From a bacterium (GTDB lineage Bacteria > Omnitrophota > Gorgyraeia > Zapsychrales > Zapsychraceae): a stretch of DNA of 64,000 nucleotides. The translations under genes were made by a program, and so were the position numbers. The notes under the pieces were generated by a model, which did not search any database, was not told the DNA's origin, and worked only from the letters and a program-made list of their open reading frames with translations. The DNA lies in NCBI GenBank assembly GCA_030429765.1, contig JAUIER010000013.1, positions 8,759-72,758 of the forward strand. The letters run 5' to 3'. Numbering within the stretch: position 1 is the first letter of the stretch; each line of letters starts with the position of its first letter. Positions 16,877-60,990 of this stretch are shown here, in pieces.

Positions 16877-16942
16877 CTACTTACCCGCCATGAGGTTAGG
16901 TAAAGTTTTCGGAATTAATTGTTCATCCCCAAGGAGTCGATC

Positions 16943-45050: not shown

Positions 45051-45151
45051 CGTATCTTTCCTATCTAATTTATTCCGAAAAGTTTATGTGATTTTTGTGC
45101 AATTGTGCTATACTTGCAATTGTTTAGAGGGAAACTGTACCAAGAACGGTT

Positions 45152-46840: not shown

Positions 46841-46869
46841 CATATCCATTCCATCAGACAGGAGAAACA

Positions 46870-47934
46870 ATGAACGCCGAATCAAAAAAATTTCTCACAC
46901 AACTTTTAGCTCAATGCGGTCCATCCGGATTTGAAGAATCCGCTCAATCGGTTTGGCTGAAACGAACAAAATCATTTGCCGATAAATCGTATAAGGATAT
47001 CCACGGCAACGCGTACGCGGTCCTCAACCCGCAGGCCGATTTTCGAATCATGCTTGCCGGGCATTGTGATGAGATCGGATTTGTGGTTTCGAGTATTTCG
47101 GAAGAAGGATATCTGTACGTCAATCCGATCGGCGGGATCGACGCCGGGGTATTGCCCGGAAGTCAGGTCAAGGTTCAGACCGCCAAGGGGTGGGTCGACG
47201 GGGTGATCGGGAAAAAGGCCATTCATCTGATGACCGCCGATGAACGCAAAAAAGTTTTTCCGCTCAAAGATATGTGGGTGGATATCGGTGCCAAGGATCA
47301 GGCCGATGCTAAAAAAATCGCGGCCGTCGGCGATCCCGTGTCCTTTGCTCCGAATTTCATTGAGCTCAAGAATAATAATTTTTCATCCAAAGGGTGTGAC
47401 GACAAGACCGGCGCGTTTGTGGTCTCTGAGGTTATCAAGATTTTGAGTGAATCGAAATTACGAAAAGACGTTGGTGTATATTCGGTGGCCACGGTTCAGG
47501 AAGAGGTTGGATTGCGCGGGGCGATCACCAGTTCATATGGGGTCAATCCCAAAGCGGCTATTGCCGTTGATGTTGGGCACACATCGGATCTGCCCGACGT
47601 CGACAAGCGTCACGTCGGAGAGATCACGCTCGGCAAAGGACCGTTGCTCCACAATGGTCCGGTGATCAACAAGGTCTTGGGACAACTGCTGATCAGCACG
47701 GCCAAGTCCAAAAAAATTCCCTATCAGTTCGCACCATTAGGTCGGCCCGGCGGAACAGATACCGCCATGATTCAGGTCAGCCGGGAAGGTGTGGCGACCG
47801 CCTTGATTGGTGTCCCGACACGTTACATGCATACGATGGTGGAGACGTGTAATTTTATGGATGTGAAACATACCGCCCAGTTGATCGCGGAGACCATTCT
47901 CAAGATTACACCAAAAACAGATTTTATCCCTTGA
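46870..47934 (+). CDS. M42 family metallo-aminopeptidase (FrvX/YsdC-like)
   Basis: HCDEIGF, QEEVGLRGA and a C-terminal TRYMH are M42 hallmarks. Confidence 0.85.
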   Translation: MNAESKKFLTQLLAQCGPSGFEESAQSVWLKRTKSFADKSYKDIHGNAYAVLNPQADFRIMLAGHCDEIGFVVSSISEEGYLYVNPIGGIDAGVLPGSQVKVQTAKGWVDGVIGKKAIHLMTADERKKVFPLKDMWVDIGAKDQADAKKIAAVGDPVSFAPNFIELKNNNFSSKGCDDKTGAFVVSEVIKILSESKLRKDVGVYSVATVQEEVGLRGAITSSYGVNPKAAIAVDVGHTSDLPDVDKRHVGEITLGKGPLLHNGPVINKVLGQLLISTAKSKKIPYQFAPLGRPGGTDTAMIQVSREGVATALIGVPTRYMHTMVETCNFMDVKHTAQLIAETILKITPKTDFIP

Positions 47935-47941
47935 TCCCGTC

Positions 47942-48451
47942 ATGCGAGACTACATCGCAAAATTACCACTGGTTCAGTGTTTTACCGTCCAGGGACGACG
48001 GACACCCGGATTCTATGCGATCACGCTGGCCCTCGGGCTGGCCCTTGTCCTTCAGTGTCTCAAGCTGATCCATCCCGCGACACAACAATCATTTCTCAAG
48101 CAATTTCATTGTCAAACCCGATCGTTCGCCGTGTGGAGTCTGCGTCAGACAGTGCCGAGTATGTACAGTTTCGAAAATCAGGTCTGGTGGAGCCGGGCGC
48201 CGTTGGATGGTCGGCCGACGTTTACCCAGTCGGATCTTGACGCGGGACGCTACCACGTATGGCTCAATCACTTTCCGTTGCACTTCGTGACGTATAATTT
48301 TTACCGTGATCTGTTTTTTATGGAGAGTGACGAAAGTTACCTGCATCTGGAATCGAGTTTTCAGCATCAAAACCTGAGTTCTTCCTACAAACTCGAGCGC
48401 GATCATGACGTGGTCCGTATCATCCCAATGAGAGGGGCGGGGGATGAGTAA
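47942..48451 (+). CDS. Hypothetical protein
   Basis: ORF translationally coupled to the downstream membrane-protein gene. No family recognised. Confidence 0.35.
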   Translation: MRDYIAKLPLVQCFTVQGRRTPGFYAITLALGLALVLQCLKLIHPATQQSFLKQFHCQTRSFAVWSLRQTVPSMYSFENQVWWSRAPLDGRPTFTQSDLDAGRYHVWLNHFPLHFVTYNFYRDLFFMESDESYLHLESSFQHQNLSSSYKLERDHDVVRIIPMRGAGDE

Positions 48452-49235
48452 GATTGAGTTTACGAATCTGCAGATTTTGCGCGTGGCCATGGGCGCGTGG
48501 TTTTTCGGCTGGTTCATCCGGTTTCAGTATTTTAAGACGTATTTGTTCACTTTTATTGAACGCTATCCGATCACCTTTGATTTCTTCCCCGGTTTTTTAC
48601 AACAAGGGGAGGTGTCGATGGTCGTGTTTTTTCTGCCAATCCTGATTGTGCCCGCTCTGCAGATCCCGTCGCAACGGCGTATGATTGTGGCCAGTATGAC
48701 TTTGCTGGTTACAGCGACGATCTCCATGCTGCACCTTGATACCTATAATGATGCCACCAATGTCACCTGTTTCTGGTCCGCGATATGGCTGCTGTGGTTT
48801 TCGGTGAATTGTCATCGGACGGACGTGGCCTTTCGCACGCAGGCCCGCTTCCTGGTGCAGTTGATTGTCACGGTGATCTTTGTGGGCGGATTTGTCGGAA
48901 AGATCACGCCGGCTTATCTTAGTGGGCAGGCATGGTTTGAAATGTTTATGTCGAAGGATTCTTATTTCTTCGGATCCGTTCTGCGCGGTCTGATTGACGC
49001 GGATCCGCGGCTGCTCAGCCGATATCTGAGCTGGGGGATGATTTTTGCCGAGGGCTGTATGGGATTGATGATCCTCGTGCCGTACCGCTTGGGCGCCATC
49101 TGCGCGTCGGTGCTGATGCTGCTCATGTTATTGATGTCGAATACCGTCTTGATCCTCTCGGTGCTGGGCTGTTTGATCGGCATGATGTTATCGTTACTGA
49201 TGTGGCGGGACATTGATCTTGAGGGTGATCGATGA
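48444..49235 (+). CDS. Hypothetical polytopic membrane protein (HTTM-like?)
   Basis: Multiple TM helices. The N-terminus LRVAMGAWFFGWFIRF loosely resembles HTTM-domain proteins. It overlaps the genes on both sides. Confidence 0.4.
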   Translation: MSKIEFTNLQILRVAMGAWFFGWFIRFQYFKTYLFTFIERYPITFDFFPGFLQQGEVSMVVFFLPILIVPALQIPSQRRMIVASMTLLVTATISMLHLDTYNDATNVTCFWSAIWLLWFSVNCHRTDVAFRTQARFLVQLIVTVIFVGGFVGKITPAYLSGQAWFEMFMSKDSYFFGSVLRGLIDADPRLLSRYLSWGMIFAEGCMGLMILVPYRLGAICASVLMLLMLLMSNTVLILSVLGCLIGMMLSLLMWRDIDLEGDR

Positions 49236-50857
49236 TAGTCTCACTCATCGGCTTGGTTGTGGTTGGGCTGGGTCTGCGAATCCTTTATATCCTCGCCCTT
49301 CACGGGCATCCGTTGCTGGAATTGTCGGTGCAGTCGAACGTGTTTGACCAGGCGCGTTTTATGGAGCTGGCCCGCGTGTTTGCGTCGGGGCAATGGTTGG
49401 GGACCATCACCGAAGGACATTTTGCATCGGCTTATTCATATATCATCGCGATTTGTTTGAGTGTTTTTCAGCAGGATATGTACGGTGTTTTTTTCCTGCA
49501 GGCAATCATCGGCGGCGCGGCCATTCTGGTGATGTATCGACTGGGAGTTGAACTCTTTGACAACAAGGTCGCGGCCTTTGCCGCTGCGGCGATACTCACC
49601 TTTTATGGACCGCTGATTTTTTTTGAAGGCGCGTTGTTACGGGCGTCTCTGTTGGCCTACGTCAATCTGTTTGCCTTTTATGCCATTGTAAAGGCGATCA
49701 AAGGTGGTCGACTGCGGTTGTACTTTATCGGTGGACTTTGGCTAGCGCTCTCGCATGCCATCCGGCCTGGAGTACTCATTCCCATGGTGGGGCTCTATTT
49801 GATCATCGCTGCGTTACGATCAGCCAAGCGATGGAAGGCGGTCGCGGTATTTGCGCTGGCTGTTGTTACGGTGCTGGTGCCGATGAAGGTTCGAGATCAT
49901 CTGGCCCGGGCGGACCAAACCATTGAGTCGCAAAACATGTCGATCTTCTGGATCGGTAACACGCACGACTCGTCGGGGATTGGTTTGTGGCGTTCACCGC
50001 TGCGTATGCAATTGACGCGTGAAGCCGGAGGCTCGAAACTGGCCACCGCCGGTATACTGTGGCGGGAAATCAAGGCCCATCCCGGGGATTATGCCGCGTT
50101 GTACTATCGAAAATTTCGAATGTTTCTCAATGGCTATGAGATCCCGGGAAATATCAACTATTATCATTTTCAGGAATTATTTCCCGTCCTGAAATTAGGC
50201 TGGATAAATTTTACACCGATGTTCCCATTTTTTTGTATGGGTCTTGTGTGTGCGATTCGAAAACGCGAGCAAATCGGTCTATTGATGGTTTTTTTGCTGA
50301 CGCTTTCGTTGAGCGTGATCGTCTTTCATGTTCAGGCCCGTTATCGGATCCCAAGCATTCCGTTTTATATCCTGATCGCCGGTCGCGGTGTGAGCGGTTT
50401 GGTGGATGCGATTCGTTTGTCCCATCGAAAGGCCCTGATCGGCTATTTGGTGTTGTCCGGTCTTGCAATGATATGGGCCTTACCGGATCAGTCGATGATT
50501 CAACGCTACTTTGGTTCGATGGTCCGACCGATTGACTATGTCAATGAGGCCGTGGCCTGGCATGTTTCCTCAATACAAAATCCGTCTGATGGGAGGGTAA
50601 ATAGTCATATCATCGAGGCGTTTCAAAAGGCCTATGATAAGACGCCGGTCAAGGCCTCCGGACTCCGTACGGATTGTCTGCTGAATATCGCTGTGTTTCA
50701 AAAACAGGGCGGTCAATTTAATGAATCCAAACAAACACTTCAACAGGCGATTGATGTAAGTCATCGCCCGGCCGCGGAGCTGCGTCAAAATATCATCGAG
50801 CGCGACGTGCAGCTTCAAACCAACCCCGCCGAGTACCAGTATCTCTATTACTTTTAA
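49232..50857 (+). CDS. ArnT/PMT-like (GT39/GT83) membrane glycosyltransferase with a C-terminal soluble domain
   Basis: N-terminal polytopic region typical of dolichyl-phosphate-mannose / 4-amino-arabinose transferase-like enzymes, plus a C-terminal non-membrane extension. Confidence 0.55.
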   Translation: MIVSLIGLVVVGLGLRILYILALHGHPLLELSVQSNVFDQARFMELARVFASGQWLGTITEGHFASAYSYIIAICLSVFQQDMYGVFFLQAIIGGAAILVMYRLGVELFDNKVAAFAAAAILTFYGPLIFFEGALLRASLLAYVNLFAFYAIVKAIKGGRLRLYFIGGLWLALSHAIRPGVLIPMVGLYLIIAALRSAKRWKAVAVFALAVVTVLVPMKVRDHLARADQTIESQNMSIFWIGNTHDSSGIGLWRSPLRMQLTREAGGSKLATAGILWREIKAHPGDYAALYYRKFRMFLNGYEIPGNINYYHFQELFPVLKLGWINFTPMFPFFCMGLVCAIRKREQIGLLMVFLLTLSLSVIVFHVQARYRIPSIPFYILIAGRGVSGLVDAIRLSHRKALIGYLVLSGLAMIWALPDQSMIQRYFGSMVRPIDYVNEAVAWHVSSIQNPSDGRVNSHIIEAFQKAYDKTPVKASGLRTDCLLNIAVFQKQGGQFNESKQTLQQAIDVSHRPAAELRQNIIERDVQLQTNPAEYQYLYYF

Positions 50858-50861
50858 CAGT

Positions 50862-52778
50862 TTATTGAAGGACGAATGGTCCGACTAGATAAACGCTTGA
50901 TCCCTGATCCGCGCTTTGGACATTGAATAAAAATTCACTGGGCGTGTCGTGTGCCACGCGCGGATCGATGGCGTACATTTGATACGAGTAGCCATAGTCC
51001 TGTTTGAGTTGATAGGATTGCCCCGCGACGGTGATATCAAATTCACTGCCGCCTTTGACAAAAAACAGGATTTGCGCCTCACGGGATAATGAAGGCAGCT
51101 GCTGTTTCAGGGAGGTTTGCGATTCCTTGGAAAAAACGCGCGCGTGAAAATAATGGTCCGGATAGACGCCTTTGAGTTGAGTCAGATCATACAATTGTCC
51201 CGACGGTGTGTCATAGAAAGCTTGAGCCAGGTGTAATTCTTCCACCGCCGTCGCGTGGCGTAAATTATCATATGAGACGATGGCTTGACCGGATTCAATG
51301 GCCTTGAGGTATTTGATCGGGATGATCCGTCCATAGAACGGTGACGGGCTTGCAAAGCGATCGTACCCCAGCGTCGGTAAATGTCCGGTCGGGAAGGCCA
51401 GATAGGTCGGGGTATTATCGGAGGCAGATACAACATCGCCGATCTGTTTGATGTGACGGACTTGACGCTGAATCTCCGGACTATTCCACCCAAACATCTT
51501 GAGGGCATCGGACGGTCCGCATTTCAGATGAATCGCATGGCTGATGCTGATCAGCGAAACGGCCACGGCTAAAATAGCCGTCTGGATTGAACGGAATGAC
51601 ATGCTCGGCCACAGGCATCCCAGGATCAGTGTAACGATGACGGCCTCGGCATACGGGTAGTAATAGCTGAAAAACAGCAGACTCGGGAACACTGTCCCTT
51701 GAGGCATGATCGTGTCATGTACGCCGCTATCGTGCGGCATGACCATAGTCTTGACGACAAAGAGTCCCGCTAACAGACCGGCTATCCCGAATTGCTTGGA
51801 GCGGCAACGGATCATACACATTCCAAGTATGCCTAAAAATCCAATCGTTCCGAGCAGGCCGGCGGGCGATGCAGACCAATAGCCGAAATTACGACGCATA
51901 AAAAACAAGCCGAACGCTGATGCCATATCCGAGTAGGTGTGCGGATTGCCCCAATAAGACACGTATTTGGCCAGGATCTGCGGATGACGGAAGGACAGCG
52001 CGGCATTGGGATCGTCGGGGACCGGGCTGATCGTGTAAGCAAAGATGGCGAAGCCGACGAAAGCCGTCAGCAAGGTTGAAATGAAGAGAATCGTCCGTCG
52101 TGACCAAAGTAGTTGACGGCGTTGGGCGAATCCGATGTAAAGCCACAATCCGGGGATCAGGAAGTAGGCGGTTTCATCCGTGATCATCGCGCAAAACGCC
52201 GCGATCCATACCAGACACAGGGAACGGCCCGGGATCCGGTCAAAATGGCGTTGGGGTCGTGAAAGAATGATCCAGGCCAACAGCCAAAAGGTCACAACGA
52301 GCAGTTTGGCATTTCGAAAGGGATACATCAGTGTGGCCATTGCGATCCCGGAATTAAGGAAGGTCAGCGCGGCAAGTGTCGCAAGGGTTCGATTTTGTCG
52401 CCACTGGTGGATTAATTTACCCACGAGCAGGCTGTTGATGATGTGAATGAGGATCAGTCCCCAGTTACGTAAATAGACGGCGCCGAACAGCTGGCCAAAC
52501 TTAAATGTCAGCATTTCGATCAGGTAAGACAGATGCCGGACTCGGAAGATGCCATCGACGAAGTAGTAATCAAATATCTTCGCCCAATCGCTGAACCACA
52601 GGCCGGTGTGATAGGCCGTGTCCTGATGGGAATTCAATGACCAGAACAATCCATGGTACACGATCTCACCGTTGGTCCATGCCACTGGCTGGGCATGAAT
52701 CCAGACGAACGTCGCGATAGGCAGGAACACGCCAAGCCATGGTCCGAAGGCAATAATGACACGTAAAAATTTATTCAT
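50862..52778 (-). CDS. Large polytopic membrane protein, hypothetical (glycosyltransferase-like?)
   Basis: About 12 or more TM helices in the N-terminal two-thirds and a roughly 200-aa C-terminal soluble domain. The start is set at MNKFL. Confidence 0.45.
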   Translation of the reverse strand: MNKFLRVIIAFGPWLGVFLPIATFVWIHAQPVAWTNGEIVYHGLFWSLNSHQDTAYHTGLWFSDWAKIFDYYFVDGIFRVRHLSYLIEMLTFKFGQLFGAVYLRNWGLILIHIINSLLVGKLIHQWRQNRTLATLAALTFLNSGIAMATLMYPFRNAKLLVVTFWLLAWIILSRPQRHFDRIPGRSLCLVWIAAFCAMITDETAYFLIPGLWLYIGFAQRRQLLWSRRTILFISTLLTAFVGFAIFAYTISPVPDDPNAALSFRHPQILAKYVSYWGNPHTYSDMASAFGLFFMRRNFGYWSASPAGLLGTIGFLGILGMCMIRCRSKQFGIAGLLAGLFVVKTMVMPHDSGVHDTIMPQGTVFPSLLFFSYYYPYAEAVIVTLILGCLWPSMSFRSIQTAILAVAVSLISISHAIHLKCGPSDALKMFGWNSPEIQRQVRHIKQIGDVVSASDNTPTYLAFPTGHLPTLGYDRFASPSPFYGRIIPIKYLKAIESGQAIVSYDNLRHATAVEELHLAQAFYDTPSGQLYDLTQLKGVYPDHYFHARVFSKESQTSLKQQLPSLSREAQILFFVKGGSEFDITVAGQSYQLKQDYGYSYQMYAIDPRVAHDTPSEFLFNVQSADQGSSVYLVGPFVLQ

Positions 52779-52952
52779 AGGTCGATGATCTGAATTTATT
52801 CGGCTCGCCGTCAGTATATCACCGATAACACCGGTTGCGGAAAAAATCAAAGCTGATATAATTGAAGACTACGCCGTTCGGGCGACGTTCAAATCAACAT
52901 CAAATCCGGAATAGTCTAAATGATATCAACCCACTTTGGAAAGGAGCGAAGG

Positions 52953-53552
52953 ATGAAGCGAATTCTCCCAATCTTATTTCTGTGTCTAGGTATGGCGACG
53001 ATGTACACGGTTTCGGCCGATGCCGGCGCGTGTCATAAAGGCGGATGCAAGGGATCGTCATGCAGTCAAGGCAAGGCAAGCAAATGCAAGATCACCAAGC
53101 TTAAAAAAATGACCAAGATGCTGTACTGGCACAAAGATGCTCTGGAAATCACCGATGACCAAATGGATCAGATCAAGTCGGTTAAACATACCGCGATTAA
53201 GACTTTGATCAAACTTCGTGCTGATAAAGATATAGTTAAAGTGGATCTCAAATCGGAGATGTGGGAAGACATGATTGATGTGGATCGGGTCAATGATCTG
53301 ATCGATCAGAAGTATGCCATCAAGACGTCGGCCAGCAAGGTCTACGTCAAGGCCATCGCCGATATTCTAAAAATCCTCAACGAAGACCAGCGTAAGATGG
53401 TCAAAAAGATCGCCAAGCACAAGAAAATGGGTAAAAGCTGCGGAACGTCCAGCTGTTGCGGAAAATGCGGTTCAGGTGGGGCCGGCAAGGTTTGTCCGAT
53501 TACCGGTAAGCCGCTTGATGGCAAAGGATCGATGAAGGGATCCATGAAGTAG
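52953..53552 (+). CDS. Periplasmic CpxP/Spy/ZraP-like (LTXXQ-motif) protein with Cys-rich N- and C-terminal tails
   Basis: Signal peptide, then CHKGGCKGSSCSQGKASKC, a helical core with ITDDQ and LNEDQ motifs, and a C-terminal SCGTSSCCGKCGSGG...CPITGKP. Confidence 0.5.
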   Translation: MKRILPILFLCLGMATMYTVSADAGACHKGGCKGSSCSQGKASKCKITKLKKMTKMLYWHKDALEITDDQMDQIKSVKHTAIKTLIKLRADKDIVKVDLKSEMWEDMIDVDRVNDLIDQKYAIKTSASKVYVKAIADILKILNEDQRKMVKKIAKHKKMGKSCGTSSCCGKCGSGGAGKVCPITGKPLDGKGSMKGSMK

Positions 53553-53567
53553 TTCACACACATTATC

Positions 53568-53594
53568 TGACAGCCGTCGCCCAAGGGCGGCGGC
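53568..53594 (+). terminator. Terminator-like 12-bp hairpin with a weak U-tract
   Basis: CAGCCGTCGCCC-aag-GGCGGCGGCTG followed by GTTTAATT. Confidence 0.3.
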
Positions 53595-53614
53595 TGGTTT
53601 AATTAAGGAAAGTT

Positions 53615-54067
53615 ATGCTGAAAAAAAATGTGTACCTTGTGTTAAGTTTCGCCATGCTGTTGCTGATCGGGCCGGGGGTGGCGGAATCCTCTCTGACGCC
53701 TAATCAACTCAAACGTGTCAAGGTGGCCCGGAGTCTTTTGGGATCGGCCGAGACCAGTTCACTTCAACAATTAACGGATGATATCACGCAGTCCCCGGCG
53801 CCTGAAGGCGCGCTTCAGATCCTCGAGGCCGTCGCCAAGGTATACCGAAAGATGGCCAATGAGTATGAAATCATCAATCCAGCCGATCAACAACGTTTGC
53901 TGGGAAAGATCAGGATGAATATGGCCTACTTTCAGCTAGGCGGGCCGGATGTGGAACGTGACGGGGAGGGACTCTTGAACATTGTCATTCGGCGAGAACT
54001 CAAGGCGACCCTGTCACCCAAGGTGTTTCAAGATCGACGATTATTCTATTCGCTGACCGATCAGTAA
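53615..54067 (+). CDS. Hypothetical secreted protein
   Basis: Signal peptide (VLSFAMLLLIGPGVAES) followed by a helical roughly 125-aa domain. Confidence 0.4.
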   Translation: MLKKNVYLVLSFAMLLLIGPGVAESSLTPNQLKRVKVARSLLGSAETSSLQQLTDDITQSPAPEGALQILEAVAKVYRKMANEYEIINPADQQRLLGKIRMNMAYFQLGGPDVERDGEGLLNIVIRRELKATLSPKVFQDRRLFYSLTDQ

Positions 54068-54081
54068 CATTCAGGGGGAGT

Positions 54082-55260
54082 GTGATCGGTATGCGAAAAA
54101 TTTTGTTTCCAATCGTTTTGCTCATTCTTGTCTGGGGATCCATCGAAGTTTTAAGCTGGGCCGGCCTGGCGGCGTTCAAGCATTTCAAGTCCGTAGAGTT
54201 CGCGCCATTCTCCTCTGAATTTCTCTACGATCATCAGAAAGAAATCATCCGAAAATTATTGGCCGGGGAAAATCAATACACCGATTATCATGCGGTGTTA
54301 GGATGGACGGTCAAGCCTTCTGCTGGCTCAGAACCTTATCAGTCCAATTCACAGGGCGTTCGCTCCGTCAGAGAATACACCTCTCAACCAGCCACGGGAA
54401 AAACCCGGATCGTCGCGTATGGCGATTCTTTTACCCACGGCGATGAAATCCCCAACGATCAGACGTGGACACATTATCTGGAGCAGGGCGACACCACCAT
54501 CGATGCGTTAAACCTCGGCGTCGGCGGTTACGGACTCGATCAGGCATATTTGCGGTATCAACTGCATGAAAATCAATTTTCGGCCGATATCGTCTTGATT
54601 GGTTACATGGTCAATAATGTCGAACGGACGGTGAATACTTTTCGTCCGTTTTACACGGAGAAGTCCGGGCTGCCGCTCACCAAGCCGCGGTTTACTCTCG
54701 AGGAGGGGCGTCTCAAACTCATCCCGAATCCTATTCAGGATCTATCCGAATACCGGGCGTTGCTGAACGAAGACCCTGCCATGATCCGACGGATCAGTGA
54801 ACACGATTTTTATTACAAGAAAAAATATTTTGCCGGTCCTTTTGATACATTGCCGAGTGTACGCCTGGTCAAGGTTCTTAAGCGGGAATACCGTCAGTTG
54901 ATTAATGAGCGTGAAAAGCAATTGGCCTTTGATATCAATGAACAGATTTTTGTTGAGTTTGCGGACCTGGCCCAACGTTATGGATCACGGCCGATTGTGC
55001 TGATTTTTCCAACCAAATACGATTTTTACCGTAAACGTTTGGGACATGAGTGCCGCTATCAGAATGTGATCGATACGCTTGAGGTCAATCAATTAGAGTA
55101 TATCGATATGATTGAGGCCTTTGATCTGACGAACCCAGAGTTTCCCATTGAAGACATGTTTGCGCCGTACAAACACTATTCGGGGCAGGCGAATCAGCGC
55201 ATCGCCCGTTATATTCTGTCCTATTTAAAAACGACTGGCACGACAGTTAAACCAAATTGA
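54082..55260 (+). CDS. Membrane-anchored SGNH/GDSL-like hydrolase (DltD/AlgX-like fold)
   Basis: N-terminal TM segment, a GDSF block I (RIVAYGDSFTHGDE), a Gly-rich block II (NLGVGGYGLDQ), and GYMVNN. Confidence 0.55.
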   Translation: MIGMRKILFPIVLLILVWGSIEVLSWAGLAAFKHFKSVEFAPFSSEFLYDHQKEIIRKLLAGENQYTDYHAVLGWTVKPSAGSEPYQSNSQGVRSVREYTSQPATGKTRIVAYGDSFTHGDEIPNDQTWTHYLEQGDTTIDALNLGVGGYGLDQAYLRYQLHENQFSADIVLIGYMVNNVERTVNTFRPFYTEKSGLPLTKPRFTLEEGRLKLIPNPIQDLSEYRALLNEDPAMIRRISEHDFYYKKKYFAGPFDTLPSVRLVKVLKREYRQLINEREKQLAFDINEQIFVEFADLAQRYGSRPIVLIFPTKYDFYRKRLGHECRYQNVIDTLEVNQLEYIDMIEAFDLTNPEFPIEDMFAPYKHYSGQANQRIARYILSYLKTTGTTVKPN

Positions 55261-55297
55261 CATCGGCAGCGCCGGAAAGATTTAGTATAATACGTGT

Positions 55298-55993
55298 ATG
55301 AAAACACTAGGATTGATCGGCGGGATGAGCTGGACGTCGACCGAACATTATTACCGGGGACTAAATGAATTGGTTCAGCAGCGGCTGGGGGCCAAGCATT
55401 CCGCGCAACTCCTGCTGTACAGTGTGGATTTTGCACAGATAGCGCAGTGGCAACGCCGTCATGATTGGGCCTGTGTGGCCGAGTATCTCACAGATATTGC
55501 GCGCCGGCTTGAACTCGCGGGTTGCGATTTATTGGGATTGTGTTCCAACACCATTCATCAGGTTGCCGATGATATCGCGGCGAAAATCGATGTCCCTGTC
55601 GTACAGATCACATCAAGTGTCGCCGAAAAAATTTCAGATCTCAAGCTTAAGCGGGTCGCCGTGCTGGGCACGCGATATGTCATGGCAGAGGGATTCTATC
55701 GTCAGCGAATCGAGACATCCAGTGCCTGTGAATCCGTTGTTCCTTCCGTACCCGATCAGGAGTGGATCCATTCCACGATTTTTGACGAGTTATGTCATGG
55801 AACAGTGAATTCATCCATCCGCCGACGATTCCGACAGATGATCGGGCAGTTGTGTGACACCTCGATAGATGGAGTTTTATTGGCCTGTACGGAACTGGGA
55901 TTGGCCATTGATATCAATGCCCATGAAAAGCCCGTTCTTGACTCCACGCAAATCCACATCCAAGCCCTGGGGGAGGCGATGCTGAATGACTAA
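55298..55993 (+). CDS. Aspartate/glutamate racemase family protein
   Basis: MKTLGLIGGMSWTST N-terminus, a second conserved Cys region (LACTELG), and a length of 231 aa typical of aspartate racemase. Confidence 0.8.
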   Translation: MKTLGLIGGMSWTSTEHYYRGLNELVQQRLGAKHSAQLLLYSVDFAQIAQWQRRHDWACVAEYLTDIARRLELAGCDLLGLCSNTIHQVADDIAAKIDVPVVQITSSVAEKISDLKLKRVAVLGTRYVMAEGFYRQRIETSSACESVVPSVPDQEWIHSTIFDELCHGTVNSSIRRRFRQMIGQLCDTSIDGVLLACTELGLAIDINAHEKPVLDSTQIHIQALGEAMLND

Positions 55994-57137
55994 GCGGTCG
56001 AACCGTTCAAACAGATTATTTGTGCTCTTGACCATTCTGTTGATGCTGGGTGTGACGGCGGTCATCGGTGAAATCTATTTGCGCGTGTTTGCCGCGGACA
56101 AGGTCTGGACGCCGGAACAATTGAAGCAGGATTCCTGGCAGCTGGATCCGGCGGTGTTTGCGCAACATGTCTTTCCGCTGCGCGAACAACTATTCATCGA
56201 CAAACAGTGGGCCAAACCCGGTGAAGGTTATCTCAAGCGATATGTGAACAAACTTGGTTACCGCGGGGCGGAATTTTCACCGGTGAAACCTCAAGGGGTG
56301 ACACGGATTCTCATCTATGGCGGATCGTTTGTCTTTGATATTTATGCATCACTCAATCAGGATTGGCCCAACCAGATTCAAATGTTGCTTCATGAGCGCG
56401 GCTACACCAACGTGGAGGTGATCAATGCGGGAATCCCCGGACATCGTTCATCCGACTCGGTGGGGCGATTATTCACCGAGGGCCATCGATTTGATCCAGA
56501 CTTCGTGGTGCTATGTAATACATTTAATGATATTAAATTTTTTGATCTGAAAAAACCGTTCCTGCGGGAAGTGGTTCCGTACCAGCCGGAAAATAATCCG
56601 ATGACCAATTACCACGGGGAAATTGACCGCTTATTAAGTGAATCATCCCGACTCTACACGTTTATCCGCCAGGAGTATTATCAGCGCAAATACAAGGTCG
56701 GCCTGGAAGGTGCCCGGCGGCGGGGGCATAATCACAACTACTATGAAGCCCGGCAGATGTTTCCGGCCGCAGTCGGTCAGTTTGAGCTGAATGTCGAATT
56801 ATTTGTGGACGCCGCCAAAAATATCGGGGCCGTACCCGTCGTGATGTCTCAGCCGCGCCTGGTGACGGCTGATAATGCTGAGTTGGAGGAGCACAAATTA
56901 CGCAACTTCCGGCCGATGTTTCGACATCAGGATTATGTGGTGGATTGTTTTAAGGCGGCGGATCAAATTATTCAGCGGGTGGCCCGTGAAAAATCGGCCG
57001 TTTTTATCCATGCCGCGGCTCAATTTACCGGCGACGGGGATATGTTTGTGGACCATATTCATCTGTCTGAGTCGGGATCGCGTCGACTGGCTGCGTATGT
57101 GGCGGATCAATTAATCCCCTTATTACCCAAGCCATAA
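55986..57137 (+). CDS. Membrane-anchored SGNH-like hydrolase paralog
   Basis: N-terminal TM segment, block I ILIYGGSFVFD (Ser retained), block II NAGIPGH, block III CNTFNDI, and block V VDHIHLS (DxxH). The start overlaps the racemase stop by 8 nt. Confidence 0.55.
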   Translation: MTKRSNRSNRLFVLLTILLMLGVTAVIGEIYLRVFAADKVWTPEQLKQDSWQLDPAVFAQHVFPLREQLFIDKQWAKPGEGYLKRYVNKLGYRGAEFSPVKPQGVTRILIYGGSFVFDIYASLNQDWPNQIQMLLHERGYTNVEVINAGIPGHRSSDSVGRLFTEGHRFDPDFVVLCNTFNDIKFFDLKKPFLREVVPYQPENNPMTNYHGEIDRLLSESSRLYTFIRQEYYQRKYKVGLEGARRRGHNHNYYEARQMFPAAVGQFELNVELFVDAAKNIGAVPVVMSQPRLVTADNAELEEHKLRNFRPMFRHQDYVVDCFKAADQIIQRVAREKSAVFIHAAAQFTGDGDMFVDHIHLSESGSRRLAAYVADQLIPLLPKP

Positions 57138-57238
57138 TCCGGCGAATGGGAAGATTAATCCAAGGGAAAATTTGATTTTGATCGGCCCGATGCGTATAAT
57201 CGAACATTTAAACAAACCGATGAGGTTGATTTCAATTC

Positions 57239-59551
57239 ATGGATAAGTGTATTTTACGCAAAATATTACTGATCACGATCGCCTGTGTTTTGGTGACCGG
57301 TGTGCTTTGGCCCTGGTCGGCCGGCGCTCTGAATCAGAATTATTACAACTCTGAGACACCCATATTCGGGGCCTCCAAACTCACCGATCATCTCAAGAAT
57401 TCAGGGTTCAGTCCGCAGTACAGTATCGGTAACTTTAAACAGGTATATTCCCGCAACACTCGTCGAATCTATTGGTTCGGCCAGACCGGATTGCACGATC
57501 GTCCCTACGATATTCACGGGCATTGGATTACGCCCAGTGGTGAATTGTTTCATCAGGACAGGGCCGAACGCAATAGTGACGGCTATTATTCGGCGAAACT
57601 CAAACTACCGCGCCGCCGCAGCAAGGTCGAGACCGGTCAATGGAGCTTTGAATTGCGCGATGGTGAGGGACATTTAATCCTAAGGGAATACTTTTATATC
57701 GGGACCGATTCGGGCAATACCACGGTCGATCTCGATGCCATATGGACTGATCCGGAATACAATATCCATGAGGCGGATGCGGTTATTTTTGATCACATCA
57801 TTGATATCGACGTTGATGACGACTATGTGGTGACCCGCACCATTCACAAACGGATGAAAATTTTGACGGAAAAAGGCGCGCGTATGTCCCAGCTGTACGA
57901 GCCGTACCGCGAAGCTCACGAGTCCGCCCGCATTACATTGATGAACACGATCAAACCCAACGGTGAGATTGTGCGCATTCCGCAACAGCTGGTCGGGCAG
58001 GTCACCGAGTATCATCCGGAGTACACATCCTCGAAGGCCGTTGTTTTTGCCTTTCCGGAAGTTGAGGTGGGATCCGTCCTGGAATATGAGATCACGTTCA
58101 AGGGGAATAAGCCTGTATCCCGGGATTTGTTCTATCATCAGTTCCGGTTTTCAGAAAGTATCCCGGTGGCCAATGTGCGCTACACGGTAACCGTGCCGCA
58201 AAGTTTTGGGTTACGATACCTGAATGTTAATCATGATTACGAGCCTGAGATTGAGGTGCTCGACAAATCACGTGAGAACCGTATTCGCTGGACGATCAAA
58301 AATACACCTCCATTAACGTTTGAGAAACACATGCCGCCGTATCGCGAAGTGGGACGATCGGTGGTTGTCAGTACGACGGCCCATTGGGGACCGGTGGCCA
58401 AATGGTGGCTGCAGGAATCGCGACGCAAGCGGATCCTGAGCGACAAGATGAAGGAATTCGTCGACCAGGCGGTTAAGGACGAGACCCATCCACAACGCAA
58501 GCTGGCCCGCATTTTTGCGGCCTTCAGGGCGAAGTTTACCGTTCTACCGGAGGAGTTGGGGCGTGTGTCGTATGAACCGATTCCAACAGATGAGGTCTTC
58601 CGGCGGGAGGCCGGCAATAGCCGTGATCTTTCGCATACCCTTGAAGTCCTATTAGAGTATGCCGGCATTGAGGCGTTCCCGACCTTCGTCCGCACGCGTC
58701 CTTTGGGGGATTTAGCCCCGAATGTCACCGGCCTGGGTGAATTCAATCACATGATCCTCACGGTAGAGTTTGAGCCGAATGCTCCCCAGTTTCTGGATCC
58801 ACGCGCCACACATTTCCAAAAAGGCACGTTCAAGTCGGATCTTTTTGGGGCTGAGCTGATGGTCGTCAAGGGGGACGTCATTGATATGATCACCCTGCCG
58901 ATACCCGGACCGACGGTCAGCGGGCAGACGCTTGATGTGGATGCCGTGGTGCATTCGGATTTTTCAATGACCGGAACGATGACGATGGAATACTTCGGTA
59001 CGGCGGACGGGGAGATCAAGGCCCGGCTCAATGGCATGAAGAACCGTGATTTTCAATTGTTTATCCAGAGTCTGGTCACCCGCATCTTTCCCAACGGGCG
59101 TTTTGAACGTTGTGAGACCTTTAACCAGAAAAAATTTACCCGTAATGCCCGGCTGGTCATCACATTTTCTGTGCCGAACGTGATCCAGGAAAAGGCCGGA
59201 GGCTACGCCATTCGAATGGTCGGGACGCCGATCAATGTGCCGGAGCATGTTAAACCGGAGCGGGTCAATCCGATATACAAACCCACTTATGGATTCAGCA
59301 AGACCAGTATGTTTATCCAGCTGCCGGAGGGGCTACGTGCCGCCAATGTGCCGTCGCGGCAGACGGTGGATACCGATATGGTGGCGTACTACACGGAGTT
59401 TTCGGCGGTGGATAATTCCATCCGATTGGATGATTCAATCACTGATAAACGTCTGGAAGTGGGTCTTGATGAGTACGAACGGTATTTCGGATTTTTTGAC
59501 GCCTATCGTCAGGGGGTTCAGGTGGATATTCCGCTGGAACTCGTGCCTTAA
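57239..59551 (+). CDS. Large secreted protein (770 aa), DUF3857/transglutaminase-like architecture suspected
   Basis: Signal peptide. The overall size and sequence character resemble DUF3857-containing proteins, but the family call is weak. Confidence 0.4.
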   Translation: MDKCILRKILLITIACVLVTGVLWPWSAGALNQNYYNSETPIFGASKLTDHLKNSGFSPQYSIGNFKQVYSRNTRRIYWFGQTGLHDRPYDIHGHWITPSGELFHQDRAERNSDGYYSAKLKLPRRRSKVETGQWSFELRDGEGHLILREYFYIGTDSGNTTVDLDAIWTDPEYNIHEADAVIFDHIIDIDVDDDYVVTRTIHKRMKILTEKGARMSQLYEPYREAHESARITLMNTIKPNGEIVRIPQQLVGQVTEYHPEYTSSKAVVFAFPEVEVGSVLEYEITFKGNKPVSRDLFYHQFRFSESIPVANVRYTVTVPQSFGLRYLNVNHDYEPEIEVLDKSRENRIRWTIKNTPPLTFEKHMPPYREVGRSVVVSTTAHWGPVAKWWLQESRRKRILSDKMKEFVDQAVKDETHPQRKLARIFAAFRAKFTVLPEELGRVSYEPIPTDEVFRREAGNSRDLSHTLEVLLEYAGIEAFPTFVRTRPLGDLAPNVTGLGEFNHMILTVEFEPNAPQFLDPRATHFQKGTFKSDLFGAELMVVKGDVIDMITLPIPGPTVSGQTLDVDAVVHSDFSMTGTMTMEYFGTADGEIKARLNGMKNRDFQLFIQSLVTRIFPNGRFERCETFNQKKFTRNARLVITFSVPNVIQEKAGGYAIRMVGTPINVPEHVKPERVNPIYKPTYGFSKTSMFIQLPEGLRAANVPSRQTVDTDMVAYYTEFSAVDNSIRLDDSITDKRLEVGLDEYERYFGFFDAYRQGVQVDIPLELVP

Positions 59552-60243: not shown

Positions 60244-60570
60244 ATGGCAAATACTAGCAATCGTCGACGGGCTAATCGGATTAAATCCAGTCTGCCCATC
60301 GAACTGCAGATCGATCAGCAAATCACTGTTCAGGGACGCCTCAAGGATATCACGGTCAAGAGTGCCTTTGTCCTGATGAAAAGCAGTGTTTACATGGAAG
60401 TCAATGACGAGTTTCGTTTCTACATCCGAAGTGTGACCAATGCGGAAGACGAGGCCTTAACCGGTATCGCGCGGGTATCCCGTATCGCTCCCGGTGAAGG
60501 GATTGCGATCTACTTTACAGACATGGACACCTCGGCAACGAACCGTTTAGCTGAAATGCTGAATTCATAG
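60244..60570 (+). CDS. Putative PilZ-domain protein
   Basis: RRRANRIK (RxxxR) near the N-terminus and a beta-barrel-sized 108-aa protein. The DxSxxG half-motif is imperfect. Confidence 0.35.
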   Translation: MANTSNRRRANRIKSSLPIELQIDQQITVQGRLKDITVKSAFVLMKSSVYMEVNDEFRFYIRSVTNAEDEALTGIARVSRIAPGEGIAIYFTDMDTSATNRLAEMLNS

Positions 60571-60591: not shown

Positions 60592-60990
60592 ATGGATACA
60601 CAAATTCTCAATACAATTCAGACGTGGTTTAGCGGTTCAACGAATCTTCCCAATTGGGCGTTGGTCCTGATGGGCGCAATTTGCGTCTGGTTCGTGTTGG
60701 GTAAGCTGCTTGGCGGACGAACCGCTTATAATCCACGCCGAAAACACAAACGCATTCCCAAGCCCGAAGAACAGATCATGCTGTTTCTCACCAAGCGGGA
60801 TGGAAAACCCATGCCGTCATATGTCGTTAAGGACGGTTTTCCTGACATCAGTCCGACCAAGCTGCTGCATCACATCAGTGAATTAAAAAGTTATCGCTAT
60901 ATCGGCGGCAATACGAACCTGGAATTGACCAAGTTCGGCCGCGCCTACCTCGTCAAACACAATCTCGTTGAAGAAACCACAGCCTCATAG
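60592..60990 (+). CDS. Hypothetical protein with one TM helix
   Basis: An ORF containing WALVLMGAICVWFVLG. Its stop abuts the convergent gene. Confidence 0.35.
   Translation: MDTQILNTIQTWFSGSTNLPNWALVLMGAICVWFVLGKLLGGRTAYNPRRKHKRIPKPEEQIMLFLTKRDGKPMPSYVVKDGFPDISPTKLLHHISELKSYRYIGGNTNLELTKFGRAYLVKHNLVEETTAS

What the first reader, a model, noticed from the sequence alone, without database searches (positions are those of the whole stretch)
52953..53552. CpxP/Spy-family periplasmic protein capped at both ends with Cys-rich tracts
The helical core carries two LTXXQ-like motifs typical of CpxP/Spy/ZraP periplasmic chaperones and stress adaptors. However, the mature N-terminus (CHKGGCKGSSCSQGKASKC) and the C-terminus (SCGTSSCCGKCGSGG...CP) are dense in cysteines. 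Known ZraP uses His/Gly-rich tails for zinc. A Cys-rich variant would be suited to soft metals (Cu, Cd, Hg) or redox sensing.
Basis: partly seen in the sequence, partly recalled or inferred. Interest (0 to 1): 0.5.

Follow-up and report, generated by a model that had tools for sequence, protein, structure and literature searches.

The report
Spy/ZraP-like periplasmic protein with cysteine tails
This gene encodes an exported helical protein of the Spy/CpxP/ZraP stress-chaperone family whose two floppy ends each carry a conserved three-cysteine motif, most likely for holding soft metals; it is an uncharacterised variant of a known theme, not a new kind of system.

Summary
Window 52953-53552 (+) is a real 199-aa gene with a strong ribosome-binding site, a signal peptide, two LTXXQ-like motifs (ITDDQ 66-70, LNEDQ 142-146) and 9 mature-chain cysteines, all in the tails.

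It belongs to a small clade of 24 clusters at 50% identity. The clade is defined by N-tail C-x-K-C…C-K-I-x-K-L-K-K and C-tail C-x-K-C-x(5-9)-K-x-C-P-I-T-G-K-P-L-x-x-K-G-S-x-K-G-S-M-K. The clade sits in a family of more than 3000 clusters whose tails are enriched in Cys, Met and His.

Cys/His and Met/His swaps between relatives and a knuckle shared with YHS/TRASH metal domains favour thiolate metal binding. So do thiol-redox neighbours (thioredoxin+CcdA, DoxX twice, MsrA) in 4 of 10 loci. A redox-switch role is not excluded. No two-component system is adjacent in any locus. Nothing was tested biochemically.

Verdict: new variant of a known kind, moderate interest.

The parts
52940..52946 (+). 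Shine-Dalgarno AAAGGAG, 6 nt before the ATG
   Evidence: Read directly. The same AAAGGAG spacing lies upstream of all 7 homologue genes examined.
52953..53552 (+). Whole gene, 199 codons plus stop. LTXXQ/Spy-CpxP-ZraP-clan exported protein.
   Evidence: Identical protein P0001 occurs on contigs from NCBI and Logan; L002 is 100% identical to window 44953-58216.
52953..53024 (+). Signal peptide, residues 1-24: MKR, hydrophobic ILPILFLCLGMATMYTV, then A-D-A followed by G
   Evidence: Sequence inspection only; no predictor was available. A24 is at least 90% conserved, and homologues end the hydrophobic stretch with AxA-type sites (VQA, SFA, VMA). A Cys at +1 is not conserved, so it is not a lipoprotein.
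53025..53087 (+). N-terminal tail, residues 25-45: GACHKGGCKGSSCSQGKASKC, with Cys 27, 32, 37, 45. Subfamily consensus C-x-K-C-x(3-5)-C-K-I-x-K-L-K-K.
   Evidence: Alignments (C45 at least 90% conserved). AF2 pLDDT is below 50 for residues 18-40.
53088..53429 (+). Helical core, residues 46-159: long alpha-hairpin plus flanking helices, no cysteine
53148..53162 (+). First LTXXQ-like motif, I66-T-D-D-Q70
   Evidence: Q70 is invariant. It aligns with Spy LNLTDAQ.
53376..53390 (+). Second LTXXQ-like motif, L142-N-E-D-Q146
   Evidence: L142 and Q146 are invariant. It aligns with Spy ILTPEQ.
53430..53549 (+). C-terminal tail, residues 160-199, with Cys 163, 168, 169, 172, 181
   Evidence: AF2 pLDDT is below 50 for 161-177 and 190-199, and about 57 around 181-190.
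53457..53510 (+). Three-Cys unit C169-G-K-C172 ... K-V-C181-P-I-T-G-K186
   Evidence: C181 is invariant in the 25-sequence alignment; P182, T184, G185 and K186 are invariant in the 12-sequence alignment and at least 90% conserved in the 25-sequence one. The unit is duplicated as a block in P0006. The K-x-C-P-I-T-G-K knuckle is the same local motif that opens YHS/TRASH domains in other secreted proteins.
53523..53549 (+). C-terminal K-G-S-M-K-G-S-M-K repeat
   Evidence: It is conserved in most subfamily members. Met is replaced by His in P0005 and P0009. The same KGSMKGS motif ends a Cu,Zn-SOD 1.1 kb from the homologue in L003.
53571..53606 (+). Terminator-like hairpin (11 pairs, 9 G-C) plus GTTTAATTAA, 19 nt after the stop codon
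   Evidence: It implies the gene is transcribed on its own.

Best explanation
The gene makes a Sec-exported, lysine-rich protein of the LTXXQ (Spy/CpxP/ZraP) clan.

Its cysteine-free helical hairpin core is the usual scaffold of these ATP-independent periplasmic chaperones and stress adaptors. The core probably self-associates as they do; this is inferred.

Each flexible tail carries a conserved three-cysteine set. The N-tail has CxxC-type plus C45 at the start of helix 1. The C-tail has C169xxC172 plus C181 in the knuckle CPITGKPL, followed by a Met/Lys/Ser/Gly repeat (KGSMKGSMK).

The most likely role of the tails is to bind soft or borderline metal ions through thiolates, assisted by Met or His. 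Candidates are Cu(I), Zn(II) and Cd(II). The protein would then buffer or hand over metal in the periplasm in the manner of ZraP, using Cys where ZraP uses His/Gly-rich tails. Envelope reducing pathways would keep the thiols available.

Shown: the gene, the export signal by inspection, family membership by profile and fold, the conserved motifs, and the tail composition.
Inferred: metal binding, which metal, oligomeric state and chaperone activity.
For: Family:
- LTXXQ is the top Pfam hit over nearly the whole model.
- 12 of 12 homologues hit it, and 5 of 10 tested pass the gathering score.
- The family profile aligns to Spy with 90.6% probability, both motifs in register.

Tails as ligand carriers:
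- Across 150 family representatives, tails hold 8.3% and 7.4% Cys against 0.6% in the core. Met is 7.9% in C-tails against 3.6%, and His is 5.8% in N-tails against 1.4%.
- Ligand-type swaps occur at matching tail positions in close relatives. P0002 has GHGHSHA where the window has GKSCGTS. P0008 has CSKH for CxKC. P0009 ends KGSHGHEH instead of KGSMKGSMK. P0012 has HH and no N-tail Cys. A disulfide partner cannot be replaced by His, but a metal ligand can.
- The [CxxC...CPITGK] unit is duplicated as a block in P0006.
- The K-x-C-P-I-T-G-K knuckle recurs in metagenomic secreted proteins as the first knuckle of YHS/TRASH metal-binding domains (YHS 64.9 bits, TRASH 49.3 bits).
- The KGSMKGS tail also ends a periplasmic Cu,Zn-SOD next to a homologue.

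Context:
- 4 of 10 loci place the gene directly beside envelope thiol-redox or repair genes. These are secreted thioredoxin + CcdA (L006), DoxX (L009 and L005) and MsrA (L003).
- DoxX genes are also linked to Sec-exported Cys-containing copper chelators (bufferins, PMC11626156).
- ZraP and Spy are described as periplasmic zinc-binding chaperones (PMC9175090).
Against: There is no biochemical evidence at all.
- The window gene itself sits among glycosyltransferase, GDSL-hydrolase and racemase genes. No metal-efflux, metal-sensor or redox gene is nearby.
- Its positional orthologue P0019 has the same housekeeping-type neighbourhood.
- The one efflux pump found next to a homologue (L001) scores as multidrug-type rather than CusA/CzcA-type: 388.7 vs 235.7 bits, both far below cut-offs.
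- PF13801 'heavy-metal resistance' hits are all below threshold.
- The tail alone matches no Pfam family and is not a canonical YHS/TRASH domain.
- The window encodes a class I ribonucleotide reductase and an Fe/Mn SOD. The host therefore probably meets oxygen, and exported cysteines may be oxidised to disulfides.
- AF2 gives the tails low confidence, so no site geometry is available.
Confidence: 0.45

Rival explanations
1. Redox-switched or sacrificial chaperone. The tail thiols, possibly holding Zn at rest, react with oxidants such as HOCl or H2O2. Disulfide formation then changes tail conformation and turns holdase activity on or off. This would be a periplasmic analogue of the Hsp33 principle. 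Alternatively the tails simply scavenge oxidant and are re-reduced by CcdA/thioredoxin.
For: Neighbours in 4 of 10 loci are thiol-redox or oxidative-repair genes: thioredoxin + CcdA, DoxX twice, and MsrA with SodC nearby. DoxX and MsrAB belong to the same HOCl-responsive envelope regulon in H. influenzae and Neisseria (PMC7907618). Spy itself is inactivated by Met oxidation and repaired by MsrPQ (PMC12503329). Disordered tails modulate Spy client release (PMC9122904). The host shows aerobic markers.
Against: Cys-to-His and Met-to-His swaps at tail positions fit ligands better than redox-active thiols. The MsrA next to P0004 lacks a signal peptide, since its alignment starts at residue 7, so it is cytoplasmic. 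The window locus has no redox neighbour.
Confidence: 0.22
2. Plain Spy-like holdase. The cysteines are only structural. A small Zn-knuckle or fixed disulfides would staple the tails or link subunits, as Cys does in some oligomeric relatives, with no role in metal homeostasis or redox sensing.
For: C45 (at least 90%) and C181 (invariant) are the two best conserved cysteines and lie at opposite ends of the core, which suits a staple. CPITGK is a generic knuckle also found at the N-terminus of ribosomal protein bL28. The window and P0019 neighbourhoods look like housekeeping regions. The gene stands alone with its own terminator.
Against: The number and spacing of cysteines vary widely, from 4 to 11 per protein with both odd and even counts. 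Members lack whole Cys sets: P0011 has no C-tail CxxC and P0012 has no N-tail Cys. The wider family swaps Cys-rich for Met- or His-rich tails. None of this is expected for a fixed structural element.
Confidence: 0.2
3. CpxP/ZraP-type signalling adaptor. The protein binds the periplasmic domain of a sensor kinase and uses its tails to report metal or redox state.
For: It belongs to the same clan as CpxP and ZraP, which repress their cognate two-component systems (background knowledge; ZraP reference cited in PMC9175090).
Against: No histidine kinase or response regulator lies adjacent in any of the 10 loci. The nearest is a HAMP kinase about 3 kb away in L004 and two orphan receiver genes about 1.3-2.1 kb upstream in L003. 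No sigma-54-like promoter was found upstream in 8 loci.
Confidence: 0.06

Closest known systems
ZraP (zinc resistance-associated protein; PDB 3lay)
   Different: ZraP tails are His/Gly-rich. Here they are Cys/Lys/Gly/Ser-rich with fixed motifs (CxKC...C, CxKC...CPITGKPL, KGSMKGSMK). Structure-based identity is only about 10%. No ZraSR-type two-component system or sigma-54-like promoter is adjacent.
Spy (E. coli periplasmic ATP-independent chaperone; PDB 3o39, 5wo2)
   Same: Both LTXXQ motifs align in register. It is the Foldseek top hit. Both are basic, have disordered termini and occur as stand-alone genes.
   Different: Spy has no cysteine and no metal-ligand tails. Sequence similarity is detectable only at profile level (E 0.67 by hmmsearch against PDB).
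CpxP (PDB 3itf, 3qzc) and CnrX/NccX (PF13801; PDB 2y39, 4clv)
   Same: They share the fold class and appear among the top Foldseek hits with probability 0.97-0.99.
   Different: CpxP is encoded next to cpxRA, and CnrX is a membrane-anchored sensor that binds Ni/Co inside the bundle (background knowledge). Here there is no adjacent regulator, PF13801 scores are sub-threshold (best 22.8 vs 29.2), and the ligand residues are in the tails rather than the core.
YHS / TRASH metal-binding domains (PF04945, PF08394, PF24273)
   Same: They share the local knuckle K-x-C-P-[IV]-[TS]-G-K-x-[LIV] and use three cysteines. Metagenomic secreted proteins carrying the exact KxCPITGK string are YHS/TRASH proteins.
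   Different: In YHS/TRASH the knuckle comes first and is followed about 20 residues later by CCxxC. Here a CxxC precedes the knuckle by 5-9 residues and nothing follows but KGS repeats. The tail gives no Pfam hit at E<=1.
Bufferins (Sec-exported Cys-containing copper-chelating RiPPs with DoxX in the operon)
   Same: Both are exported Cys-bearing polypeptides, and DoxX is a neighbour in two loci (PMC11626156).
   Different: No MNIO (DUF692) or DUF2063 gene was seen in any locus (Pfam lists). The protein is a folded 175-aa chaperone-type protein, not a short core peptide.

Membership tests
LTXXQ / Spy-CpxP family (Pfam PF07813) | Score at or above the Pfam gathering threshold (24.3 bits) | tested here: inconclusive
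   The window protein scores 16.2 bits, E 0.018, but covers profile positions 10-98 of 100. Subfamily members at 40-53% identity to it score 28.7, 27.9, 27.8, 26.7 and 24.6 bits, so 5 of 10 pass. All 12 first-round homologues hit it. Membership follows by transitivity, not from the protein's own score.
LTXXQ / Spy-CpxP family (Pfam PF07813) | Two LTXXQ motifs, one in each arm of the hairpin, in register with Spy | tested here: met
   ITDDQ 66-70 and LNEDQ 142-146. Q70, L142 and Q146 are invariant. They align to Spy LNLTDAQ and ILTPEQ.
LTXXQ / Spy-CpxP family (Pfam PF07813) | Profile-level homology to a characterised member | tested here: met
   hhalign of the 150-sequence profile against E. 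coli Spy gives probability 90.6% and E 1.3e-6. Its aligned region agrees with the PDB chains printed.
LTXXQ / Spy-CpxP family (Pfam PF07813) | Long alpha-helical hairpin fold | tested here: met
LTXXQ / Spy-CpxP family (Pfam PF07813) | Export to the periplasm | tested here: met
   An N-terminal signal peptide with an A-D-A cleavage site was found by inspection and is conserved in homologues. Loci of homologues encode LptF/G and an outer-membrane factor, so those hosts are diderm. No signal-peptide predictor was available.
LTXXQ / Spy-CpxP family (Pfam PF07813) | ATP-independent chaperone activity | not testable with these tools
   This needs aggregation and refolding assays.
ZraP | His/Gly-rich zinc-binding tails | tested here: not met
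   The tails are Cys/Lys/Gly/Ser-rich. The window protein has one His in the N-tail and none in the C-tail.
ZraP | Encoded next to the ZraSR two-component system with a sigma-54 promoter | tested here: not met
   No kinase or regulator is adjacent in 10 loci. No sigma-54-like element lies in the 200 nt upstream in 8 loci.
CnrX/NccX, Metal_resist (PF13801) | HMM score above the gathering threshold (29.2 bits) | tested here: not met
   The window protein has no hit. The best homologue scores 22.8 bits. 6 of 12 homologues hit at E<=1.
YHS / TRASH domain | HMM hit, and the C-x(19-22)-C-x3-C arrangement with the CPxxG knuckle first | tested here: not met
   The 43-aa tail gives no Pfam family at E<=1, while control proteins with the same knuckle give YHS 64.9 bits and TRASH 49.3 bits. 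The order of elements is reversed in the tail.
Bufferin-type RiPP precursor | Adjacent MNIO (DUF692) and DUF2063 maturase genes | tested here: not met
   Neither family appears in the Pfam lists of any locus.
Hsp33-like redox-regulated chaperone (works-like comparison only) | Zn-thiolate centre released on oxidation, activating holdase function | not testable with these tools
   This needs metal analysis and activity assays with and without oxidant.

The most novel reading that the evidence does not exclude
The conserved three-Cys sets at both ends form a metal-thiolate switch that couples periplasmic oxidant or copper stress to chaperone activity. At rest the tails are clamped by Zn or Cu(I). 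Oxidation or metal exchange releases them and changes client binding. CcdA/thioredoxin or DoxX-type membrane oxidoreductases then reset the switch. This would be a periplasmic, ATP-independent counterpart of the Hsp33 redox switch, built on a Spy scaffold.
Probability: 0.1. Interest if true: 0.7.

Novelty: new variant of a known kind. Interest (0 to 1): 0.33.

Why it matters
Spy, CpxP and ZraP are model systems for how small ATP-independent periplasmic proteins protect the envelope and report stress. Their flexible tails are known to tune activity.

This clade shows that the same scaffold has been fitted, in poorly studied uncultured bacteria, with fixed cysteine motifs instead of ZraP's histidine tails. 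The only named genome that carries it is a Candidatus Omnitrophota MAG. More broadly, the wider family swaps Cys-, Met- and His-rich tails freely.

If the tails bind metal, they give a compact, testable example of how ligand chemistry is exchanged on a constant chaperone core to match different metals or redox conditions. If they are redox-active, they would extend redox-regulated chaperoning to the periplasm.

The practical value is modest. The result is a well-defined motif set and a short protein that is easy to express and test.

Tried and rejected
1. A tail-only profile search of the 5.8-billion-protein collection (A3; a first attempt was too short). 52 candidates shared words with the query and none scored E<=10. 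It could not show whether the tail is a mobile module.
2. The search for related loci in metagenome contigs. A5 was too diverse. A1 matched 116 pattern stretches but none was a relative.
3. A degenerate DNA scan for KxCPITGK in metagenomes. It returned no LTXXQ gene. It did return YHS/TRASH proteins and bL28, which explained the knuckle.
4. Genome collection scan. It found only one relative, in an Omnitrophota MAG.
5. Conserved gene neighbourhood. There is none across the clade. The downstream 150-aa and upstream 662-aa window proteins have no counterpart beside homologues.
6. Heavy-metal efflux link via L001. It was rejected because the pump scores as multidrug-type.
7. Periplasmic MsrA link via L003. 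It was weakened because that MsrA has no signal peptide.
8. Lipoprotein reading of A-C at the cleavage site. It was rejected because Cys at +1 is not conserved.
9. Regulatory RNA. There are no Rfam hits in the window.
10. Sigma-70 promoter scan upstream found none. A sigma-54 pattern search found none.
11. A second copy in the window. There is none.
12. The AFDB fold library was unavailable.
13. Literature searches for Cys-rich LTXXQ/Spy-family proteins found nothing relevant.
Full report
**1. The observation**

Window 52953-53552 (+) is an intact 199-codon gene. A longer reading frame begins at 52920, but AAAGGAG at 52940-52946 lies 6 nt before ATG 52953. All seven homologue genes examined have the same AAAGGAG-to-ATG spacing and start MKK or MKR.

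A G+C-rich hairpin (11 pairs, 53571-53596) with a T-rich tail follows the stop codon by 19 nt. The upstream gene is divergent. The gene is therefore most likely transcribed alone. No sigma-70-like promoter was found in 52600-54200, and there is no Rfam match anywhere in the window.

The protein reads as follows:
- Residues 1-24: signal peptide MKR-ILPILFLCLGMATMYTV-SADA.
- Residues 25-45: N-tail GACHKGGCKGSSCSQGKASKC.
- Residues 46-159: a Cys-free, Lys-rich helical core carrying ITDDQ (66-70) and LNEDQ (142-146).
- Residues 160-199: C-tail GKSCGTSSCCGKCGSGGAGKVCPITGKPLDGKGSMKGSMK.

All nine mature-chain cysteines lie in the 61 tail residues out of 175. That is about 8e-5 under random placement (my arithmetic).

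**2. Family**

*Sequence evidence.*
- Pfam's best hit is LTXXQ (PF07813) over profile positions 10-98 of 100. The score is below the curated cut-off (E 0.018, 16.2 vs 24.3 bits). NCBIfam and a direct PDB sequence search gave nothing meaningful.
- The word-indexed search of 5.8 billion proteins found only 12 relatives, including an identical protein from NCBI and Logan assemblies.
- All 12 hit LTXXQ at E<=1. Of 10 subfamily members scanned individually, 5 exceed the gathering score at 28.7, 27.9, 27.8, 26.7 and 24.6 bits. PF13801 (Metal_resist) appears only below threshold, with a best score of 22.8 vs 29.2 bits.
- A profile of 150 family representatives picks Spy and the Spy-like STV protein as its best PDB sequence matches. 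These are not significant (E 0.16-1.9), but both motifs are in register.
- hhalign of that profile against E. coli Spy gives 90.6% probability. Its aligned part agrees with the PDB printout.

*Structure evidence.*
- An AlphaFold2 model from the 12-sequence alignment is confident for residues about 41-160 (pLDDT above 90; helices 46-59, 68-103, 110-141, 144-159). It is unconfident for both tails.
- Foldseek against the PDB lists Spy, ZraP, CpxP and CnrX/NccX at the top, with probability 0.97-1.0 but E-values of 0.18-0.9.

Taken together, membership of the LTXXQ/Spy-CpxP-ZraP clan is well supported. It rests on relatives and profiles rather than on the protein's own Pfam score.

**3. The clade and its motifs**

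An exhaustive HMMER profile search of 1.84 billion cluster representatives found 3136 proteins at E<=1e-3, 702 at <=1e-10 and 18 at <=1e-30. There is a clear drop after the first 16 hits, from 1e-45 to 1e-32.

The string CP[ILVMF][TSA][GE] occurs only in P0001-P0024 among the 159 sequences held. The 25-sequence alignment defines the clade as follows:
- Signal peptide.
- N-tail: C-x-K-C-x(3-5)-C-K-[IV]-x-K-L-K-K.
- Core with Q70, K83, I86, D98, K120, K124, L142 and Q146 invariant.
- C-tail: C-x-K-C-x(5-9)-[GK]-K-x-C-P-I-T-G-K-P-L-x-x-K-G-S-x-K-G-S-M-K.
- C181 is invariant. C45, P182, T184, G185, K186 and the last Cys of the CxxC are at least 90% conserved.

Each tail therefore offers a three-cysteine set. 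P0006 carries two tandem copies of the [CxxC...CPITGK] unit, so the unit behaves as a block.

The only hit in the species-representative genome collection is a Candidatus Omnitrophota MAG (L006). The loci recovered have G+C contents from 0.32 to 0.53, so several lineages are involved. The window's own taxon was not determined.

**4. Tails in the wider family**

Cys-rich tails are not unique to this protein. In the 150 best representatives:

| Residue | N-tail | C-tail | Core |
|---|---|---|---|
| Cys | 8.3% | 7.4% | 0.6% |
| Met | 3.5% | 7.9% | 3.6% |
| His | 5.8% | 3.0% | 1.4% |

Gly and Lys are also abundant in the tails. 27% of C-tail cysteines are followed by Pro, against a Pro frequency of 4.7%. 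Of the 159 sequences held, 32 have at least 3 Cys in the C-tail, 36 have at least 3 Met and 7 have at least 3 His.

The three residues enriched in the tails are the three classical metal-ligand side chains. They also replace one another at matching positions in close relatives:
- P0002 (77% identical) has MGHGHSHAKSCCGKC where the window has MGKSCGTSSCCGKC.
- P0008 has CSKH for CxKC.
- P0005 ends KGSHKGSMK and P0009 ends KGSHGHEH.
- P0012 has HH and no N-tail cysteine.
- P0011 lacks the C-tail CxxC.

Cysteine counts range from 4 to 11 and are both odd and even. This pattern fits ligand-bearing tails better than a fixed disulfide architecture.

**5. What the CPITGK knuckle resembles**

A tail-only profile search returned nothing. 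A degenerate DNA scan for K-x-C-P-I-T-G-K in metagenome contigs returned no LTXXQ genes among the 120 stretches fetched. It did show the same string in two recurrent settings:
- The N-terminus of ribosomal protein bL28.
- Secreted proteins with repeats such as DDPINKKCPITGKDIVSGKTVEYEKQLIGFCCQDCVGKFE.

Pfam identifies the second group as YHS (64.9 bits, three stretches) and TRASH domains (49.3 bits, four stretches), which are metal-binding modules. The window's 43-aa tail gives no Pfam hit in the same run. In the tail the CxxC precedes the knuckle instead of a CCxxC following it about 20 residues later.

The tail therefore shares a local metal-knuckle motif and a three-Cys count with YHS/TRASH, but it is not a member of those families.

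**6. Genomic context**

Ten loci of clade members were read (25/72, 30-32, 88). There is no conserved operon and no adjacent two-component system. A sigma-54 pattern search over the 200 nt upstream of eight genes found nothing.

*The window.* The gene lies between a divergent 662-aa membrane protein with no Pfam match, which is next to a PMT_2 glycosyltransferase, and a 150-aa secreted protein of unknown function. GDSL hydrolases, an Asp/Glu racemase and a DUF3857 protein follow. P0019 sits in a syntenic block (PKD protein, M42 peptidase, two small proteins, GDSL hydrolase, the gene, DUF3857). It is encoded on GCA_020429915.1 and many metagenome contigs. In that lineage the gene is therefore a stable chromosomal resident.

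*Thiol-redox and repair neighbours.* Four of the ten loci put the gene directly beside envelope thiol-redox or oxidative-repair genes on the same strand:
- A secreted thioredoxin (WCPSC) plus a CcdA/DsbD_TM protein, 50 nt upstream, in the Omnitrophota MAG.
- DoxX 85 nt upstream in L009, and DoxX/MauE 77 nt downstream in L005.
- MsrA 21 nt upstream in L003, with a Cu,Zn-SOD 1.1 kb downstream.

DoxX genes are uncommon in bacterial genomes (my general knowledge), so two independent adjacencies in different orientations and different G+C backgrounds are unlikely to be chance. That judgement is my own rough estimate, not a computed statistic.

*What the literature says about these neighbours.*
- DoxX belongs to the HOCl-responsive envelope regulon together with MsrAB in H. 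influenzae and Neisseria.
- DoxX is part of a thiol oxidoreductase complex in M. tuberculosis (PMC7907618).
- DoxX is a frequent but dispensable member of operons for bufferins, which are Sec-exported Cys-containing copper chelators (PMC11626156).

*Caveats.*
- The MsrA in L003 lacks a signal peptide.
- The RND pump beside P0003 in L001 scores as multidrug-type rather than CusA/CzcA-type.
- tblastn with these neighbour proteins finds nothing in the window.

*A shared tail motif.* The L003 Cu,Zn-SOD has a Met-rich N-terminal extension (SSKGSMSGAKSMDGMMK) and ends ...HGSPKGSMKGSTTY. This is the same KGSMKGS motif that ends the LTXXQ proteins. The motif was found in no other six-frame ORF of the window and the loci then held, L001-L014.

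**7. Mechanism**

*Best-supported reading.* The protein is a periplasmic Spy/ZraP-type scaffold. Its two flexible tails each present three thiolates, plus Met in the terminal repeat, for soft or borderline metals. It would act as a metal buffer or hand-over protein and possibly as a metal-modulated holdase. Reducing pathways such as CcdA/thioredoxin would keep the thiols available. I rate this at about 0.45.

*Shown:*
- gene structure;
- export signal, by inspection only;
- clan membership;
- conserved motifs;
- ligand-type composition and swaps;
- knuckle resemblance to YHS/TRASH;
- redox-type neighbours in some loci.

*Inferred:*
- metal binding, the identity of the metal, oligomeric state and chaperone activity.

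*Rivals:*
- A redox-switched or sacrificial chaperone (0.22). It is favoured by the neighbours and by the aerobic markers in the window, namely a class I ribonucleotide reductase and an Fe/Mn SOD.
- A plain holdase with purely structural cysteines (0.20).
- A CpxP-like signalling adaptor (0.06). It is disfavoured because no kinase is adjacent in any locus.

**8. Comparison, novelty and score**

The protein works like ZraP in concept and belongs to the same clan. It fails ZraP's specific features (His/Gly tails, ZraSR linkage). It also fails the tests for CnrX, YHS/TRASH and bufferin membership.

Full-text searches found no description of Cys-tailed LTXXQ proteins. One JGI record names a member only 'Spy/CpxP family protein refolding chaperone'.

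I class it as a new variant of a known kind. It has a defined motif set, is rare (24 clusters at 50% identity) and has never been tested. Interest is moderate (0.33). A specialist would find the conserved CxxC...CPITGKPL...KGSMKGSMK architecture and the Cys/Met/His tail swapping worth an experiment, but not surprising in principle.

Noticed in passing
L003:4803-5489 (+): A periplasmic Cu,Zn-superoxide dismutase lies 1.1 kb downstream of homologue P0004. It has a Met-rich N-terminal extension (SSKGSMSGAKSMDGMMK) and ends HGSPKGSMKGSTTY, the same KGSMKGS tail motif as the LTXXQ clade. The motif KGS.KGS occurs in no other six-frame ORF of the window and loci L001-L014. It may be a modular tail on several exported metalloproteins in these organisms.
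   Followed up: partly
L006:796-1938; L009:3960-4367; L005:5580-6047; L003:2525-3064: Envelope thiol-redox or repair genes lie directly beside the homologue in 4 of 10 loci, on the same strand with gaps of 21-85 nt. They are a secreted thioredoxin + CcdA, DoxX, DoxX/MauE, and MsrA. The window locus has none.
   Followed up: partly
L001:4300-4309, L007:9954-9963, L009:4427-4436; window 60540-60549 and 5636-5645: The 10-mer RAACCGTTWA lies 15-38 nt upstream of the start codon of three homologue genes from different contigs. It is absent upstream of the window gene. In the window it occurs twice (expected 0.43). One copy lies 42 nt upstream of an unrelated 132-aa ORF at 60592-60990. It could be a promoter or operator element, or chance.
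   Followed up: partly
L132, L071, L056, L119, L134 (metagenome contigs): Secreted proteins built of tandem YHS/TRASH repeats begin each repeat with DDPINKKCPITGK. An RND-adaptor-like fragment carries CPITGKPLGSMG...LLCCDGC. The N-terminus of ribosomal protein bL28 carries the same KVCPITGK string.
   Followed up: partly
L005:3161-5503: Homologue P0006 has a duplicated [CxxC...CPITGK] unit. It lies 13 nt downstream of a large serine recombinase, with a second resolvase gene nearby, on a 32% G+C contig. This may be a mobile-element setting.
   Followed up: no
window 53615-54067 (+): A 150-aa ORF starts 62 nt after the LTXXQ gene and has an N-terminal hydrophobic signal-like segment. It has no Pfam family and no counterpart beside homologues. 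Its function is unknown.
   Followed up: partly
window 50862-52850 (-) and 49232-50857 (+): A 662-aa multi-pass membrane protein without any Pfam match converges tail-to-tail (4 nt gap) on a PMT_2-type glycosyltransferase. Both are absent from the otherwise syntenic P0019 locus, so they look like an insertion into the conserved block.
   Followed up: no
window 12480-13100, 13398-16538, 16919-17989: The window encodes an Fe/Mn superoxide dismutase and both chains of a class I ribonucleotide reductase, with ATP-cone domains on the large chain. The host therefore probably lives with oxygen, which matters for the redox state of exported cysteines.
   Followed up: no
window 44953-58216 vs L135/L136 (GCA_020429915.1, JAGQKV010000002.1): A conserved gene order links the window to a named NCBI assembly and to many metagenome contigs: PKD-repeat protein, M42 peptidase, two small unknown proteins, GDSL hydrolase, LTXXQ gene, DUF3857 protein. 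P0019 is listed in 70 blocks of the collection.
   Followed up: partly
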